Virus record (IMG/VR): IMGVR_UViG_2778261009_000009
From: a virus
Lineage: Duplodnaviria; Heunggongvirae; Uroviricota; Caudoviricetes
Length of the DNA stretch: 35,253 bases
Direction: 5' to 3' (one strand)
Positions 2 through 35,253 of the stretch are shown here, piece after piece (the first letter of the stretch is position 1; every line of letters begins with the position of its first letter). The translations under genes were made by a program, and so were the position numbers. The notes under the pieces are model-generated. The model saw nothing but the letters and a program-made list of their open reading frames with translations, did no database searches and was not told where the DNA came from.

Positions 2-568
2 TTAGCCTCTTATCTTGAATTCTGCTATAACTTTGCCGATGAATACAAGGTCATTAATGTTCATATCAACAATGATATTCCCATAGTTAATCTTAACTTT
101 ATTATCAGGAATTCTAATAACTTGTTTTATAGAATGCTTTCCATCAATGGAGATTAACCAATCACCATCAACTACATCTGTGAAATCCCTCTCAATAAAA
201 TAAGAGTTATTCCCGTTTGATATCACAGATGGTGATGATAAACCATCAGGAATGAACACTTTGTCAAACATTAGTGTTCCTGCATCCAATAGCACTCCAT
301 CAATCAATTTTATTTTTTGAATATTGATGATGTCAGAAGTTAAATATTCATGTTTAGGAGGTAAGCCTGTTACCAGCCACTTTATGTTTACTCCTGTTTC
401 GAGCGCGCACTGAATAACCCAATCAGAAGGGAATGAATCTCTCATGTAGCGTGTAGCAAGACTGCTTTTTGATATGCCTAGTTGTTCACATAACGCCTGT
501 CTTGTAGTGAACCCATAGGCTTCAACCATCCTTTCGATAGCTTTCTTTCCACCTTGACTAAAATCCAT
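2..568 (-). CDS. cI: 186-type CI immunity repressor (N-terminal HTH, no LexA-like Ser/Lys peptidase motif); ATG at 568 preferred over GTG at 673
   Basis: HTH-like segment GFTTRQALCEQLGISKSSLATRYM; AGGTGA Shine-Dalgarno 4 nt before ATG at 568; longer ORF would contain the divergent promoter. Confidence 0.65.
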   Translation of the reverse strand: MDFSQGGKKAIERMVEAYGFTTRQALCEQLGISKSSLATRYMRDSFPSDWVIQCALETGVNIKWLVTGLPPKHEYLTSDIINIQKIKLIDGVLLDAGTLMFDKVFIPDGLSSPSVISNGNNSYFIERDFTDVVDGDWLISIDGKHSIKQVIRIPDNKVKINYGNIIVDMNINDLVFIGKVIAEFKIRG

Positions 569-569
569 C

Positions 570-645
570 GATTTCACCTTGTGAACTTTATGGTTGACGA
601 TTTCAATTTGTGATCTTATAGTCGCATTGATTTCAAAATGTGACT
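570..645. promoter_or_regulatory. Three direct copies of a 17-bp element GATTTCA-N4-TGTGA (570-586, 599-615, 629-645; spacing 29-30 bp), putative repressor operators overlapping the early promoter
   Basis: Read directly: gatttcaccttgtgaac / gatttcaatttgtgatc / gatttcaaaatgtgact; each has partial dyad TCA(C/A)-N3-GTGA. Confidence 0.45.
594..622 (+). promoter_or_regulatory. Sigma70-type early rightward promoter (pR-like): TTGACG (594-599), 17-bp spacer, TATAGT (617-622)
   Basis: Near-consensus -35/-10 hexamers with 17-bp spacing about 70 bp upstream of apl-like ORF. Confidence 0.5.
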
Positions 646-694
646 TACAACTACTCGTCAATGTTAAACACACTTAAACAGGAGATGTTGCCTT

Positions 695-916
695 ATGACT
701 CAGCACATTTCAATCACATTAGCTGTCCCATCCATTTCGGTTGAAAAGTACAGTGAACTCACAGGGTTATCTGTAGACACTATCAACAGTATGCTCGCAG
801 ATGGACGCCTTAAGCGGCATCGTCTTCGCAAGGATAAAAAACGTGAAAAGGTAATGATCAACATTGCAGCCATGACAGTGGATGCGCTTGCCGATTCCAA
901 TGTCGTAATCAATTGA
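695..916 (+). CDS. Apl/Cox-like small HTH early regulator/excisionase
   Basis: 73-aa ORF first in rightward operon, divergent from cI; AGGAG 10 nt upstream; HTH-like KYSELTGLSVDTINSMLADGRL. Confidence 0.55.
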   Translation: MTQHISITLAVPSISVEKYSELTGLSVDTINSMLADGRLKRHRLRKDKKREKVMINIAAMTVDALADSNVVIN

Positions 917-948
917 TTCGATTTTGAAATAAAGGGAAGGGGCTGACT

Positions 949-2272: not shown

Positions 2273-2499
2273 TGGCTGATGCAATGGATCTCGTACAGCA
2301 GCGCGTTGAAGAAGAACGCCAACGCCATATCCGTGCTGCCCGTGCCAAAACGCCGGGCGTGTCCCGCGTGCTTTGCGTTGAGTGTGAAGCGCCAATTCCG
2401 CCAGCACGCCGCCGTGCCATTCCGGGTGTGCAGCTTTGCATTACCTGTCAGGAAATCGCAGAGCTGAAAGGCAAACATTACAACGGAGGTGCTGTATGA
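2272..2499 (+). CDS. TraR/DksA-family C4 zinc-finger protein
   Basis: CVECEAPIPPARRRAIPGVQLCITCQ four-Cys motif; 75 aa; start overlaps previous stop. Confidence 0.7.
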   Translation: MADAMDLVQQRVEEERQRHIRAARAKTPGVSRVLCVECEAPIPPARRRAIPGVQLCITCQEIAELKGKHYNGGAV

Positions 2500-3350
2500 G
2501 CACCATCCTGAAATGGGCAGGAAATAAAACCGCCATAATGTCCGAACTGAAAAAGCATCTTCCTGCTGGCCCGCGACTGGTTGAACCTTTCGCGGGTTCC
2601 TGTGCAGTGATGATGGAGACGGATTACCCCAGCTATCTTGTTGCGGATATTAATCCTGATTTAATCAACCTCTATAAAAAGGTTGCTGCTGATTGTGAGG
2701 CGTTTATATCTCGTGCCAGAGCTTTATTTGAGGAAGCAAACAGGGAGGTGGCTTATTACAACATAAGGCAGGAGTTTAATTACTCCACTGAAATTACTGA
2801 TTTCATGAAAGCGGTATATTTCCTGTATCTCAATCGTCACGGTTACCGTGGTTTATGTCGCTATAACAAGAGCGGGCATTTCAACATTCCCTACGGTAAT
2901 TATAAAAATCCGTATTTCCCTGAAAAAGAAATTCGCGCATTTGCAGAGAAAGCCCAGCGGGCAACGTTTATCTGCGCCAGCTTTGATGAAACGCTGGCGA
3001 TGTTGAAGGTGGGGGATGTGGTGTATTGCGATCCGCCTTATGACGGTACGTTTTCCGGCTATCACACTGATGGTTTCACTGAAGATGATCAGTATCACCT
3101 GGCATCCATTCTTGAACATCGGTCATCAGAAGGACATCCGGTCATTGTTTCTAACAGTAACACGTCTTTGACCCGGTCCCTTTATCGTAATTTCACTCAC
3201 CACTACATCAGGGCGAAACGCAGCATCGGCGTTGCAGCGGGGGAGGGAAAATTTGCAACAGAGATGATTGCCACTAAATCTGCTAATTGGTTTAGTGCCG
3301 ATTTTAGTAGGGGACGTGACTCTACTGTTATTTTCGGGGTGCAAGTGTGA
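2496..3350 (+). CDS. dam: Dam-type N6-adenine DNA methyltransferase
   Basis: N-terminal KWAGNK...EPFAGS and catalytic DPPY motif (CDPPYDG); GGAGG RBS; ATG at 2496 overlaps previous stop. Confidence 0.85.
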
Positions 3351-32089: not shown

Positions 32090-32179
32090 TTCTTCGCAAT
32101 GGAGAACTTTTAAGTTTGCAAAATGGAATAATGCGGTATCATTATTGTGAATTTAGCAAAAATGGGGAGAACTCGAAAA

Positions 32180-32398
32180 ATGATGATTTGCCCACTGTGT
32201 GGAAGTGCCGCCCATACTCGCAGCAGTTTTCAGGTATCTTCATTGACCAAAGAGCGTTACAACCAGTGCCAGAACATTAACTGCAGCCATACTTTTGTTA
32301 CCCATGAAACTTTTGTTCGTTCGATTGCAACGCCAAAAGAGTCAAATCCGGTTCAGCCGCATCCAATGAAATCAGGACAGGTGGCGCTCTCTCTTTGA
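32180..32398 (+). CDS. ogr: Ogr/Delta-family zinc-finger late transcription activator (72 aa)
   Basis: MMICPLCGSAAHTRSS...CQNINCSHTF four-Cys pattern; same length as P2 Ogr; ATG at 32180. Confidence 0.8.
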   Translation: MMICPLCGSAAHTRSSFQVSSLTKERYNQCQNINCSHTFVTHETFVRSIATPKESNPVQPHPMKSGQVALSL

Positions 32399-32478
32399 CG
32401 CTGCCGCCATTTTGTCGCCATCGTTAAAAAACAGTGCTTCTAACATCATGATTTTAAACAGCTTAAATTTCAGGCAAC

Positions 32479-32521
32479 AAAAAACCCATCAACCTTGAAC
32501 CGAAATGGCGGGGTTGATGGG
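32479..32521 (-). terminator. rho-independent terminator, probably of host ybjL
   Basis: 10-bp stem cccatcaacc/ggttgatggg with 17-nt loop, followed on minus strand by T6 (plus A-run 32479-32484). Confidence 0.5.
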
Positions 32522-32633
32522 CTCCACAAAATGGGGACATCAAAGAAAAGCAGTGGCACTAATTAAGACTGATGCCCTGCGGAAAAGTTCTGCGGTTGTG
32601 CAAAAAAATTTCATTTTCAGGGCAACTTCAGTT

Positions 32634-34319
32634 TTATCCTAATCCTGGCCATACCATGACGATGATTGTCCCTGCCAGCGTCAGCAGGACGTTGGCGATT
32701 GCATAGGTGCCCGCATAGCCCAGCGCCGGGATGTTACTGCGAGCTGTATCACTGATGATCTCCATTGCCGGCGCGCAGGTACGTGCGCCCATCATTGCGC
32801 CGAACAACAGCGCGCGGTTCATTCGCAATACATAAGCACCGAACAAGAAACAGATAACCACGGGCACCAGACTGACAATCAATCCGGCAATCAACATCTG
32901 ACCGCCAATCGCGCCCAGGCCGTTATTAATACCGCTACCGGCGCTCAGACCAACGCCTGCCATAAACACCATCAAGCCGAACTCTTTCACCATGCTTAAT
33001 GCACCCTGCGGAATGTAACCGAAGGTCGGGTGGTTAGCACGCATAAAGCCCAGCATAATTCCGGCGAATAACAACCCGGCAGCGTTCCCCATGCCGAAAC
33101 TGAATGTGCTGAACTGGAAGGTGATCATCCCGATCATCAGCCCAATAACAAAGAAGGCGCAGAATGCCAGCAGGTCAGTGACCTGGCTGTGAATCGAGAT
33201 AAAGCCGATGCGATCGGCGATGGTTTTTACGCGGCGGGCATCGCCGCTGACTTGTAAAACGTCACCTTTGTTAAGCACGACGTTGTCATCTATCGGCATC
33301 TCAATCTGGCTACGAATGACGCGGTTAAGGAAGCAACCGTGATCGGTCAACTTCAGTTGTGCGAGACGTTTACCTACAGCGTTATGGTTTTTAACGACCA
33401 CTTCTTCAGTGACGATACGCATGTCGAGAAGGTCACGATCGAAAACTTCTTTACCGTTACGGAAGCTGGGATCGAGTCGGGCATGGGCGTCGGGATAGCC
33501 TACCAACGCTATTTCATCGCCCATTTGTAGCACGGCATCACCGTCTGGATTTGCCAGAATCCCGTTACGTCGAATACGTTCAATGTAGCAGCCGGTTTGT
33601 CGATAAATACCCAGTTCACGCAGATTTTTGCCGTCGGTCCAGGCCACCAGTTCCGGGCCGACGCGATAGGCGCGGATCACCGGTAAATAAACCTTACGGT
33701 TGGCATCAGTGTCCAGGCCACGTTCGCGGGCGATTTGCTGGGCGCTGGTCTGTAAGTCCTGATGCTGCAATTTCGGCAAGTAACGCGCACCAACAATCAA
33801 ACTCACCAGACCGATTAAATAGGTTAAGGCATACCCGAGGCTCAGATTATCCAGTGCCAGTGAGAGCTGCCTGCTTTCCATGCCGGAATGACGCAGTGTA
33901 TCGCCAGCACCGACCAGAACCGGTGTCGACGTCATAGAGCCTGCTAACATACCGGCCGTCAGGCCAATATCCCAGCCAAACAGCTTACCTAACCCTAAGG
34001 CGATCACCAGCGCACTGCCAACCATCACCAGTGCTAACATTAGGTAATTTTTCCCATCGCGAAAAAAAATGGAAAAAAAGTTCGGTCCGGCTTCGACCCC
34101 GACGCAGAAAATAAACAGCATAAAGCCAAGATTAAGCGCATCGGTGTTAATGCTGAAATGTTGTTGGCCTAATAACAGCGATACGACTAAAACGCCAATG
34201 GAATTACCCAGTTGGATCGAACCAAGTCGTAACTTTCCGAGACATAGCCCAAGCGCGAGGACCACAAATAATAACAGAATGTAATTCCCATTTAACAATT
34301 CGGCGACGTTTATATTCAC
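32634..34319 (-). CDS. ybjL: host putative transporter YbjL (AAE family, 561 aa, GTG start)
   Basis: Multi-TM N- and C-terminal halves flanking soluble RCK_C-like repeats; recognised as E. coli YbjL. Confidence 0.8.
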
Positions 34320-34588
34320 GGAGGCTAACTTCTTGTTTACTAGTAAGCTGTTGAAAGAAATGGTAATTTACGATAATGTTTTTTACCAGAATTCAGGGCG
34401 CAGATTCATTCAGCGCACCTAAACGATAGTAAAGTAACAATATATTTTACTAGTGTAATCACATTAGGTATCAACGGCTATATGAATTGCGTTGGCCTAT
34501 ATTAGCATGGAATGCGAAGCGGCTTTATCTTACTGAACGCCACACTGGCGAAAAATGTGTTCGATAGACGCAGTGTCAGGAGGAACGA

Positions 34589-34966
34589 GTGAAACATAAA
34601 CAACGTTGGGCGGGGGCAATCTGCTGTTTTGTCCTCTTCATTGTGGTGTGCCTTTTTCTGGCGACGCACATGAAAGGCGCTTTTCGGGCTGCCGGGCATC
34701 CTGAAATCGGCTTGCTATTTTTCATTCTTCCTGGAGCAGTCGCCAGCTTCTTTTCACAGCGTAGAGAAGTCCTGAAACCTCTGTTTGGCGCAATGCTGGC
34801 GGCACCCTGTTCGATGCTCATTATGCGGCTGTTTTTTTCACCGACGCGCTCATTCTGGCAAGAGCTGGCATGGTTACTAAGCGCGGTGTTCTGGTGTGCG
34901 CTGGGGGCACTGTGTTTCTTATTTATCAGTAGTTTGTTTAAACCACAGCACAGAAAAAATCAGTAA
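34589..34966 (+). CDS. ybjM: host inner membrane protein YbjM (125 aa, GTG start)
   Basis: CAGGAGG RBS; hydrophobic 125-aa protein adjacent to grxA as in E. coli. Confidence 0.7.
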   Translation: MKHKQRWAGAICCFVLFIVVCLFLATHMKGAFRAAGHPEIGLLFFILPGAVASFFSQRREVLKPLFGAMLAAPCSMLIMRLFFSPTRSFWQELAWLLSAVFWCALGALCFLFISSLFKPQHRKNQ

Positions 34967-34995
34967 AGCCCTCAACGCGAGGGCTTGTCAGACGA

Positions 34996-35253
34996 TCAGG
35001 CGTCCAGATTTTCTTTCACCCATGCAGCAAAATCGGTATAGCCGCCGATATGTTGCTGATCGACAAAAATCTGCGGCACGGTTTCTACGGGTTTACCTGC
35101 CTTTTGTTGTAGATCTTCTTTAGTGATCCCTTCCGCACGAATATCTACATACTGATACTGAAAATCATCGCGTTCATTGCTCAATTTCTCAGCCAGATCT
35201 TTTGCACGCACACAGTAAGGGCAACCCGAACGACCAAAAATAACGGTTTGCAT
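34996..35253 (-). CDS. grxA: glutaredoxin 1
   Basis: 85-aa ORF with CPYC active site (GRSGCPYCVRAK); start codon is the last 3 nt of the window. Confidence 0.9.
   Translation of the reverse strand: MQTVIFGRSGCPYCVRAKDLAEKLSNERDDFQYQYVDIRAEGITKEDLQQKAGKPVETVPQIFVDQQHIGGYTDFAAWVKENLDA

What the first reader, a model, noticed from the sequence alone, without database searches (positions are those of the whole stretch)
569..694. Immunity switch: three direct 17-bp repeats overlapping a strong pR-like promoter
In the cI/apl intergenic region, a TTGACG-17-TATAGT promoter points toward apl/cII and is overlapped by three copies of GATTTCA-N4-TGTGA at 29-30 bp spacing (about three helical turns), each with partial dyad symmetry TCA(C/A)-N3-GTGA. 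This looks like cooperative repressor binding across -35, spacer and start site, as expected for a 186-type switch.
Basis: seen in the sequence. Interest (0 to 1): 0.4.

Follow-up and report, generated by a model that had tools for sequence, protein, structure and literature searches.

The report
Repressor operators of a 186-like prophage
Three same-direction copies of a 15-17 bp sequence overlapping the lytic promoter of an E. coli 186-like prophage are most likely the binding sites of its CI repressor; this is an ordinary immunity switch, with sites about three DNA turns apart instead of the two turns in phage 186.

Summary
GATTTCA-N3-TGTGA occurs exactly at 570-584, 599-613 and 629-643, spaced 29 and 30 bp, and nowhere else in the window. 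12 of 15 positions are identical in all three copies; 300 shuffles reached at most 9. TTGACG-17-TATAGT (594-622) points at the first lytic gene.

The gene to the left encodes a full-length homologue of phage 186 CI. In about 20 related switch types, three sites sit at the same positions:
- next to the cI start
- in the pR spacer
- at the transcription start

Their sequences follow the CI helix-turn-helix, not the Cox/Apl protein. The best parse of each site is ATTTC-N5-GTGAW. That is the geometry of the annotated 186 FL/FR sites, with a type-specific left half.

The operator reading is supported, with these differences from 186:
- spacing of about three turns, not two
- asymmetric sites, all in one orientation
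- a first lytic gene that is Cox-like, not an Apl homologue
- no convincing distal FL/FR sites

Binding itself is untested. I rate this a new member of a known kind, of modest interest. A by-product: a Dam site (GATC) inside the central operator is kept in 16 of 20 switch types.

The parts
570..586 (+). Operator O1, GATTTCACCTTGTGAAC (core ATTTC-ACCTT-GTGAA). It lies upstream of the pR -35 and overlaps the cI ribosome-binding site.
   Evidence: Exact motif match. Conserved position in relatives. The central CACC is also kept in other switch types, consistent with a second constraint from the cI Shine-Dalgarno sequence.
599..615 (+). Operator O2, GATTTCAATTTGTGATC. It fills the 17-bp spacer of pR and contains the Dam site GATC at 612-615.
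   Evidence: GATC sits at the same offset from the -35 in 16 of 20 switch types.
629..645 (+). Operator O3, GATTTCAAAATGTGACT. It covers the predicted pR start site (+1 to about +17).
   Evidence: The +1 is inferred from the position of the -10.
594..622 (+). Lytic promoter pR: TTGACG (594-599), 17-bp spacer, TATAGT (617-622).
   Evidence: Consensus scan, 10 of 12 matches. TTGAC and TAnAgT are conserved in relatives.
2..568 (-). cI repressor gene (188 aa), a homologue of 186 CI with an HTH N-terminal domain and an oligomerising C-terminal domain.
   Evidence: Pfam PF07022 and PF16452. PDB 2FJR E 4e-24 and 2FKD E 4e-8. RefSeq annotates it as 'phage repressor protein CI'.
575..580 (-). Probable cI Shine-Dalgarno sequence (AAGGTG on the - strand), 6 nt before the ATG at 568 and inside O1.
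   Evidence: Read directly from the sequence. The CACC column is conserved across switch types. Inferred.
685..713 (-). Candidate lysogenic promoter pL, facing pR: TTGAAA (713..708), 17-bp spacer, CAACAT (690..685).
   Evidence: Both hexamers sit at exactly the offsets from the first lytic gene's ATG that the annotated 186 pL hexamers have (-10 at -10..-5, -35 at +13..+18). ATGTTGC is conserved in relatives. The match is weak (8 of 12) and below the scan threshold. Inferred.
695..916 (+).
   Evidence: PHROG 575, E 3.6e-26. No BLASTP alignment to 186 Apl. No Pfam hit.
664..682 (+). Two cox-box-like direct repeats 10 bp apart, TTAAACACA (664-672) and TTAAACAGG (674-682), between pR and candidate pL. 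They are candidate sites for the Cox-like protein.
   Evidence: The first matches the P2 cox-box consensus TTAAA(G/C)NC(A/C), whose boxes start 10-11 bp apart (PMC3936717). Sequence. Inferred and untested.
306..322 (+). Weak operator-like sequence AATTTTATTTTTTGAAT inside cI, at the position equivalent to 186 FL.
   Evidence: PWM score 8.4, fraction of positions scoring at least as high 0.0002, about 0.02 after correcting for the zone searched. Not corroborated in relatives with the same operator type. Doubtful.
915..931 (-). Weak operator-like sequence TATTTCAAAATCGAATC just after the cox-like gene's stop codon, at the position equivalent to 186 FR.
   Evidence: PWM score 9.6, seventh best in the window, about 0.009 after zone correction. 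Only the left half and the spacer match. Not corroborated in relatives. Doubtful.

Best explanation
The three repeats are the operators O1, O2 and O3 of the prophage's CI repressor at the early lytic promoter pR.

- Site anatomy: each site is best read as a 15-bp asymmetric site, ATTTC-N5-GTGA(A/T/C). It is presumably bound by one CI dimer through its helix-turn-helix domains, with half-site centres 10 bp apart.
- Repression: O2 fills the promoter spacer and O3 covers the start site, so bound CI keeps RNA polymerase off pR. O1, about 30 bp upstream, probably adds cooperative binding energy through contacts between CI C-terminal domains, as in the 186 CI multimer.
- Lysogenic side: repressing pR should also relieve interference on the weak, convergent promoter pL, which makes cI.
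- What is shown: the repeats, the promoter, the homology of CI, the positional conservation of the sites, and their co-variation with CI.
- What is inferred: one dimer per site, cooperativity, the oligomeric state, and pL.
For: 1. The repeats are real and far beyond chance.
2. They occupy the same stretch, from the cI ATG through pR, that the 186 record annotates as '3 binding sites for CI repressor; repression of pR'.
3. The adjacent gene encodes a full-length 186-CI homologue.
4. 20 distinct switch types from enterobacterial prophages keep sites at the same three positions relative to the -35, while the sequences differ by type. One example is GATTCCAAAAGCRAWC three times in Brenneria.
5. 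Natural swap experiments:
   - L032 and L013 have 100% identical Cox-like proteins but different CI recognition helices (SKGTLANRYMRD against SKSTLATRYMRD) and different sites.
   - L029 and L003 show the same pattern, with 99% identical Cox-like proteins.
   - The window and L024 have only 52% identical Cox-like proteins, but the same helix (SKSSLATRYMRD) and the same sites.
6. The parse ATTTC-N5-GTGAW has the same geometry and right half as the annotated 186 CI sites FL and FR, ATTCAC-N5-GTGAAT.
7. In other family members, individual sites are inverted (L046 + - +, L050 + + -). That fits a dimeric binder of a pseudo-symmetric site.
Against: - No binding data exist for this protein.
- The spacing (29-30 bp, about 2.8 turns at 10.5 bp per turn) differs from the 2-turn spacing of the 186 pR operators. 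The published 186 wheel model accommodates 3-turn spacing only with distortion (PMC3675496).
- Some relatives (L006, L007) share the recognition helix SKSTLATRYMRD with L003 yet have different sites. Specificity must therefore also depend on other residues.
- No convincing distal FL/FR-type or pB-type sites were found in the window.
Confidence: 0.85

Rival explanations
1. The repeats are binding sites for the Cox-like excisionase/repressor (the Apl analogue), not for CI.
For: Recombination directionality factors of P2-like phages bind direct repeats in the switch region (PMC7498355; PMC3936717). The three copies here are all in the same orientation.
Against: - Such sites are 6-9 bp long and 10-11 bp apart, and lie between pR and pL. 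The repeats here are 15-17 bp long and 29-30 bp apart.
- The repeats change when CI changes but the Cox-like protein stays 99-100% identical. They stay the same when the Cox-like protein diverges to 52%.
- Separate cox-box-like repeats exist at 664-682.
Confidence: 0.04
2. The repeats act at the RNA level, as hairpins in the cI leader transcribed from pL or in the pR leader, controlling translation or stability.
For: O1 is a 5+5 palindrome containing the cI Shine-Dalgarno sequence, and the predicted fold of the leader puts it in a small hairpin.
Against: - Folding energies are no better than shuffled sequence: z = -0.66 for the cI leader and +1.65 for the pR leader.
- There is no relevant Rfam match; the only hit is below threshold and lies inside the cox-like gene.
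- Sites O2 and O3 are poor palindromes.
- In relatives, the sites keep their position relative to the promoter rather than any pairing.
Confidence: 0.03
3. CI binds here, but not as a 186-style heptamer-of-dimers wheel. The roughly 3-turn spacing and the very divergent C-terminal domain would reflect a different oligomer or a differently sized ring.
For: - Spacing of 29-30 bp recurs across the family, and HP2 has 28-31 bp.
- C-terminal domains are only 26-41% identical among relatives whose N-terminal domains are 70-85% identical.
- The 186 authors say 3-turn spacing would need the DNA-binding domains about 3.9 nm further out.
- The linker here is not longer than in 186.
Against: - The C-terminal domain still matches the 186 CI C-terminal domain family and the 14-mer crystal chain 2FKD.
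- The same paper reports that the 186 wheel occupies about 180 bp, which fits 3-turn contacts.
Confidence: 0.25

Closest known systems
Coliphage 186 CI / pR-pL switch (three CI operators at pR; Dodd, Egan, Shearwin laboratories)
   Same: - Homologous CI with both domains.
- Three sites running from the cI start codon across pR.
- A strong pR facing a weak pL, whose hexamers sit at identical offsets from the first lytic gene's ATG.
- A cII gene of the same length (169 aa, PF06892) follows.
- The right half-site GTGAA and the X5-N5-Y5 geometry equal those of 186 FL/FR.
   Different: - Operators are about 29-30 bp apart rather than two turns.
- Sites are asymmetric and all in one orientation.
- O1 lies wholly upstream of the -35.
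- The pR -10 to pL -10 distance is 68 bp, against 82 bp in 186.
- The first lytic gene is Cox-like, not Apl.
- No clear FL, FR or pB sites.
- CI is only 30% identical.
Haemophilus phages HP1/HP2 cI and the pR1/pR2 region
   Same: The CI is in the same family (29% identity). Copies of GGGTCAAATGACCC lie about 28 bp apart in the spacer and at the start of the annotated pR2, with a weaker copy about 31 bp upstream. This is the same roughly 3-turn layout.
   Different: HP2 sites are good palindromes, and there are two tandem lytic promoters. That HP1 cI binding was mapped experimentally rests on my own recollection; I found no paper in the library.
P2 C repressor and its direct-repeat operators (P2, WPhi, P2 Hy dis)
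   Same: The operators are direct repeats overlapping the early promoter in a P2-like phage with convergent promoters (PMC1904268, PMC2995052).
   Different: P2 C belongs to a different, small repressor family. It binds two short direct half-sites with one dimer. The repressor here is a 186-type CI, and each repeat is itself a two-half-site unit.
Lambda CI with OR1-OR3
   Same: Three adjacent operators overlap a lytic promoter next to the divergent repressor gene, with cooperative dimers.
   Different: The protein family is unrelated in sequence. Lambda's promoters are back-to-back rather than face-to-face, and its operators are about 23-24 bp apart (my own knowledge).

Membership tests
186-type CI immunity switch | Repressor is a homologue of 186 CI (HTH N-terminal domain plus oligomerising C-terminal domain). 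| tested here: met
   PF07022 E 1e-28 and PF16452 E 1.7e-26. 2FJR E 4e-24 over residues 10-184. 30% identity to 186 CI by tblastn.
186-type CI immunity switch | Three CI operators between the cI start codon and the pR start site. | tested here: met
   Three repeats at 570-645 against the 186 annotation of 3 CI sites from the cI ATG across pR. Binding itself was not tested.
186-type CI immunity switch | pR operators spaced two helical turns apart. | tested here: not met
   Spacing is 29 and 30 bp. 186 is stated to have two turns (PMC3675496).
186-type CI immunity switch | Convergent (face-to-face) pR and pL promoters. | tested here: inconclusive
   pR is clear. pL is only a weak candidate, TTGAAA-17-CAACAT, at the 186-equivalent offsets, and is below the scan threshold.
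186-type CI immunity switch | Distal CI sites FL and FR about 300 bp either side of pR. | tested here: inconclusive
   There are weak matches at the equivalent positions, 306-322 and 915-931, with corrected p about 0.02 and 0.009. They are not corroborated in relatives with the same operators. A Brenneria relative does have a good fourth site at -286 from its cI ATG, where 186 FL lies at -285.
186-type CI immunity switch | CI site at the late-activator promoter (pB). | tested here: not met
   The operator-like sequence at 32135-32152 is unchanged in Klebsiella phages that carry other CI types, and it overlaps an invariant -10.
186-type CI immunity switch | The lytic operon begins with Apl, followed by CII. 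| tested here: inconclusive
   CII is present (PF06892, E 9e-42). The first gene is Cox-like (PHROG 575) and has no BLASTP alignment to 186 Apl. It is the same functional class but not detectably homologous.
186-type CI immunity switch | Operator sequence co-varies with the repressor's DNA-binding domain. | tested here: met
   L032/L013, L029/L003 and window/L024 comparisons.
186-type CI immunity switch | CI forms a 14-mer wheel that wraps operator DNA. | not testable with these tools
   There is only sequence homology of the C-terminal domain to 2FKD (E 4e-8).
P2 C-type direct-repeat operators | Repressor belongs to the P2 C protein family. | tested here: not met
   The repressor has the 186-CI Pfam domains.
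Cox/Apl (RDF) operator arrays | Short direct repeats spaced 10-11 bp apart. | tested here: not met
   The three repeats are 29-30 bp apart. Only 664-682 fits the RDF pattern.

The most novel reading that the evidence does not exclude
This large clade of 186-family repressors, of which the window is one clean example, may assemble on three strong asymmetric operators set about three helical turns apart. That would imply either a ring of different geometry from the published 186 wheel, or that 3-turn contacts are the family's native mode and 186's 2-turn pR is the exception. In addition, the almost invariant Dam site inside the central operator could make repressor binding or pR activity sensitive to methylation state. 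That would link the switch to replication or to the phage's own Dam methylase.
Probability: 0.15. Interest if true: 0.55.

Novelty: new member of a known kind. Interest (0 to 1): 0.3.

Why it matters
The result defines the likely operators of an uncharacterised immunity type of 186-like prophage, found in 17 of 5426 complete E. coli genomes. Placed beside about 20 related switch types, it also suggests three general points:

- The 3-site, roughly 30-bp layout may be common in the sampled part of the family, with 186's 2-turn layout a possible exception. This bears on an inconsistency the 186 authors themselves raised: their wheel occupies about 180 bp, which fits 3-turn contacts.
- Specificity seems to reside in one variable half-site paired with a shared GTGAW half-site.
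- A Dam site is embedded in the central operator.

All three are cheap to test. None of them overturns the known model.

Tried and rejected
1. pB-type CI site. GGTATCATTATTGTGAAT at 32135-32152 lies between gene D and the ogr/B-like gene, and GATTTCGAAATGGAATG (32072) and GTTTGCAAAATGGAATA (32114) are nearby. The region is 97-98% identical in Klebsiella phages with CI proteins only 38-44% identical, and TATCATTA is invariant even in Fels-2. It is therefore a promoter and coding feature, not a CI-type-specific site.
2. The best PWM hit outside pR is 1578-1594 (score 14.6). It lies inside the fil gene and is nearly the same in phage 4LV2017, which has a different CI. I take it as coding conservation.
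3. CACATTTTGA at 977-986 is a 10-nt inverted match to O3. It lies in cII codons that are homologous in 186, so it is probably chance.
4. Distal FL/FR sites: only weak matches in the window, and no support in relatives with the same operators.
5. RNA structure and Rfam gave nothing.
6. TTAAAC repeats near 32454 looked like possible att-side sites for the Cox-like protein. They lie in host DNA beyond the att core, CGCTGCCGCCATTTTGTCGCCA, which is duplicated at window 32398-32419 and next to int in L001.
7. A leftward promoter using the second TTGACG (661..656) has no usable -10 (read).
8. The automated 'best triple' survey of spacing is reliable only for high-scoring types. It does not recover the degenerate 186 operators.
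9. The literature search for HP1 operator mapping found nothing in the library.

Full report
**What the window is.** Positions 1-760 are 99.9-100% identical to a chromosomal prophage in 17 of 5426 complete E. coli genomes. In strain 13TMH22 the local gene order is rcdA, att, integrase, DUF4276 protein, AAA ATPase, 'phage repressor protein CI', a hypothetical gene, a CII family gene, Fil, and so on. The att core CGCTGCCGCCATTTTGTCGCCA occurs next to int and again at window 32398-32419, so the prophage ends there and the rest of the window is host DNA. From position 749 rightwards the DNA is about 91% identical to Klebsiella Peduoviridae, but the cI-to-promoter segment has no close match among deposited phages. 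This is therefore a distinct immunity type.

**The observation.** The finding spans the whole 126-bp gap between cI (568..2, minus strand) and the first lytic gene (695-916).
- GATTTCA-N3-TGTGA occurs exactly at 570-584, 599-613 and 629-643. The only other match with up to two mismatches in the whole window is at 1580-1594.
- The repeat finder reports the copies as 19-20 nt long, with spacing 29 and 30.
- Twelve of 15 positions are identical in all three copies. 300 dinucleotide-preserving shuffles of the region gave 6.97 ± 0.66, with a maximum of 9.
- TTGACG-17-TATAGT at 594-622 is the only strong rightward promoter.
- Copy 1 ends 8 bp upstream of the -35 and contains the probable cI Shine-Dalgarno sequence. 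Copy 2 starts at the last base of the -35 and fills the spacer. Copy 3 starts at about +1.

**The proteins.**
- The leftward gene has both Pfam domains of the 186 repressor (PF07022 and PF16452). It aligns end to end with the 186 CI crystal chain 2FJR (E 4e-24) and with the 14-mer C-terminal domain chain 2FKD. Identity to 186 CI is 30%, and to HP2 cI 29%.
- The gene at 949-1458 is a CII (CP76) protein of 169 aa.
- The first lytic gene is not a detectable homologue of 186 Apl (no BLASTP alignment). It belongs to PHROG 575, 'Cox-like excisionase and repressor'.

**Comparison with 186.**
- The GenBank record U32222 annotates three CI sites running from the cI ATG across pR. It also annotates seven Apl sites between pR and pL, a pL whose -10 and -35 straddle the apl ATG, and distal CI sites FL and FR.
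- In the window, TTGAAA (713..708) and CAACAT (690..685) lie at exactly the same offsets from the first lytic gene's ATG as the 186 pL hexamers. ATGTTGC is conserved in relatives.
- This makes a plausible weak pL facing pR, but it remains an inference.
- The 186 pR operators are two helical turns apart (PMC3675496). Here the spacing is 29-30 bp.

**Relatives.** Protein-guided searches returned about 100 loci whose CI is 45-63% identical to the window's.
- Oriented like the window, they fall into about 20 switch types that are less than 85% identical over the promoter region.
- Sites recur at the same three positions: abutting the cI ATG, in the pR spacer, and at +1. In some types one of the three is weak or unrecognisable.
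- The sequences differ by type. Examples are GATTCCAAAAGCRAWC in Brenneria, (A/G)TCAC-N5-GTGAA in Hafnia, and ATCTC-GAAAA-GTGAA in L046.
- Eight types share the window's ATTTC...GTGA motif. These include L040, the closest relative at 63% CI identity, where the N5 and flanking bases have drifted but ATTTC and GTGA are retained.

**Which protein the sites follow**.
- L032 and L013 encode 100% identical Cox-like proteins, but their CI recognition helices differ (SKGTLANRYMRD against SKSTLATRYMRD) and so do all three sites.
- L029 and L003 show the same pattern, with 99% identical Cox-like proteins.
- The window and L024 have Cox-like proteins only 52% identical, but the same helix (SKSSLATRYMRD) and the same sites.
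- The repeats therefore follow CI, not the Cox/Apl analogue.
- The correlation is imperfect. L006 and L007 have the L003 helix but different sites, so residues outside that helix must contribute.

**Anatomy of a site.**
- A parse that fits the whole family is X5-N5-GTGAW. In the window this gives ATTTC-ACCTT-GTGAA, ATTTC-AATTT-GTGAT and ATTTC-AAAAT-GTGAC.
- This is the geometry of the annotated 186 FL and FR sites, CTTCAC-TTAAT-GTGAAT and ATTCAC-TTTAT-GTGAAT.
- Across types the right half GTGAW is widely shared, while the left half is type-specific (ATTTC, ATCTC, RTCAC, TMTAC, GTACC).
- In some types a site is inverted (L046 + - +, L050 + + -). That fits a dimer on a pseudo-symmetric site rather than a monomer array.
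- From my own knowledge, Shearwin, Dodd and Egan reported that the 186 CI HTH recognises two distinct sequences, which is compatible with mixed half-sites. I could not retrieve that paper.

**Spacing.** Among the types with clear repeats, start-to-start distances are 28-30 and 30 bp. HP2 has copies of GGGTCAAATGACCC 28 bp apart in the spacer and at the start of the annotated pR2. One Klebsiella phage (ST11-VIM1phi8.4) has 29 and then 20 bp. The roughly 3-turn layout is thus the most frequent among the loci sampled, and 186 looks like the exception. The 186 authors note that their wheel occupies about 180 bp, which fits 3-turn contacts, but that 3-turn spacing would need the DNA-binding domains 3.9 nm further out. 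The window's linker is not longer than that of 186. Whether this CI forms the same wheel cannot be decided here.

**Other CI sites.** A PWM built from 15 window-type sites scores the three operators at 22-26 bits. The next best hit is 14.6 bits, at 1578-1594.
- The 1578-1594 hit lies in fil and is nearly unchanged in a phage with another CI.
- An operator-like sequence at the ogr/B-like promoter (32135-32152) is likewise unchanged in Klebsiella phages with three other CI types.
- Weak matches lie at the positions equivalent to 186 FL (306-322) and FR (915-931). Their zone-corrected chances are about 0.02 and 0.009, but relatives with the same operators show nothing consistent there.
- A Brenneria relative does have a good fourth site at -286 from its cI ATG, where 186 FL lies at -285. 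FL may therefore be ancestral but not universal.

**Rivals.**
- Cox/Apl binding is disfavoured by the co-variation, by the spacing, and by the presence of separate cox-box-like repeats. These are TTAAACACA (a full match to the P2 consensus TTAAA(G/C)NC(A/C)) and TTAAACAGG, 10 bp apart at 664-682.
- RNA-level roles have no support: fold z-scores are -0.66 and +1.65, and there is no relevant Rfam family.

**Verdict.** This is a new, uncharacterised member of the 186/HP1-type CI switch. It differs from the 186 paradigm in spacing, site asymmetry, the identity of the first lytic gene, and the lack of clear accessory sites. All functional statements remain inferences until binding is measured.

Noticed in passing
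window 612-615 (GATC inside O2, one base 5' of the pR -10); Dam methylase gene at window 2496-3350: A Dam site sits at exactly +18 from the start of the -35 in 16 of 20 distinct switch types, even where the operator sequence differs. It is also present in phages SEN1, Cartapus, 813R9 and ST11-VIM1phi8.4, but not in 186 or HP2. O1 and O3 usually have GAAC at the corresponding position. The phage's early operon encodes a D12-class adenine methylase (PF02086). This raises the possibility of methylation-sensitive repression or promoter activity.
   Followed up: partly
window 2-568 and loci L003-L032: CI proteins that share the window's operators and about 80% identical N-terminal domains have C-terminal domains only 31-41% identical. 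The repressor is mosaic. Phages with the same DNA specificity but different oligomerisation domains might be homoimmune yet unable to form mixed oligomers, or might differ in sensitivity to antirepressors.
   Followed up: partly
window 664-682: TTAAACACA and TTAAACAGG lie 10 bp apart between pR and the candidate pL. The first is a full match to the P2 cox-box consensus. They are likely sites for the Cox-like protein.
   Followed up: partly
The switch combines a 186-type CI and CII with a Cox-type excisionase/repressor.
   Followed up: yes
L001 2267-4000 (immediately left of window position 1): An AAA family ATPase gene and a DUF4276 gene sit between int and cI. This looks like a two-gene accessory cassette, possibly anti-phage defence. 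Phage 186 has int directly next to cI.
   Followed up: no
window 32398-32419 and L001 about 500-525: The 22-bp direct repeat CGCTGCCGCCATTTTGTCGCCA marks the prophage ends (att core). The prophage lies between rcdA and a 561-aa transporter gene plus grxA. Window 32420-35253 is host DNA.
   Followed up: partly
L001 about 860-1110 (between the att core and int): There is a run of roughly 30-bp tandem repeats (…CCACCACCTGGTCCTGTGTA…). It would encode a Gly/Pro-rich repeat peptide on the minus strand and is not annotated as a gene.
   Followed up: no
L006 2769-2785 and L008 2757-2773 (Brenneria prophages): A fourth operator-like site (GATTGCAAAAGCGCACC) lies inside cI at -286 from the ATG. That is the same offset as the annotated 186 FL site (-285), which suggests FL is an old feature of the family.
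   Followed up: partly
L124 54-995 (Klebsiella phage 4LV2017) and L076: The annotated 'CI' is an over-long ORF that appears to contain two tandem CI-like N-terminal segments, and tblastn finds two places per record. It may be a duplicated or fused repressor region.
   Followed up: no
window 587-600 and 655-668: There is an inverted repeat containing TTGACGA on both strands (TTTATGGTTGACGA / TCGTCAATGTTAAA). The leftward copy has no usable -10, and its meaning is unknown.
   Followed up: partly
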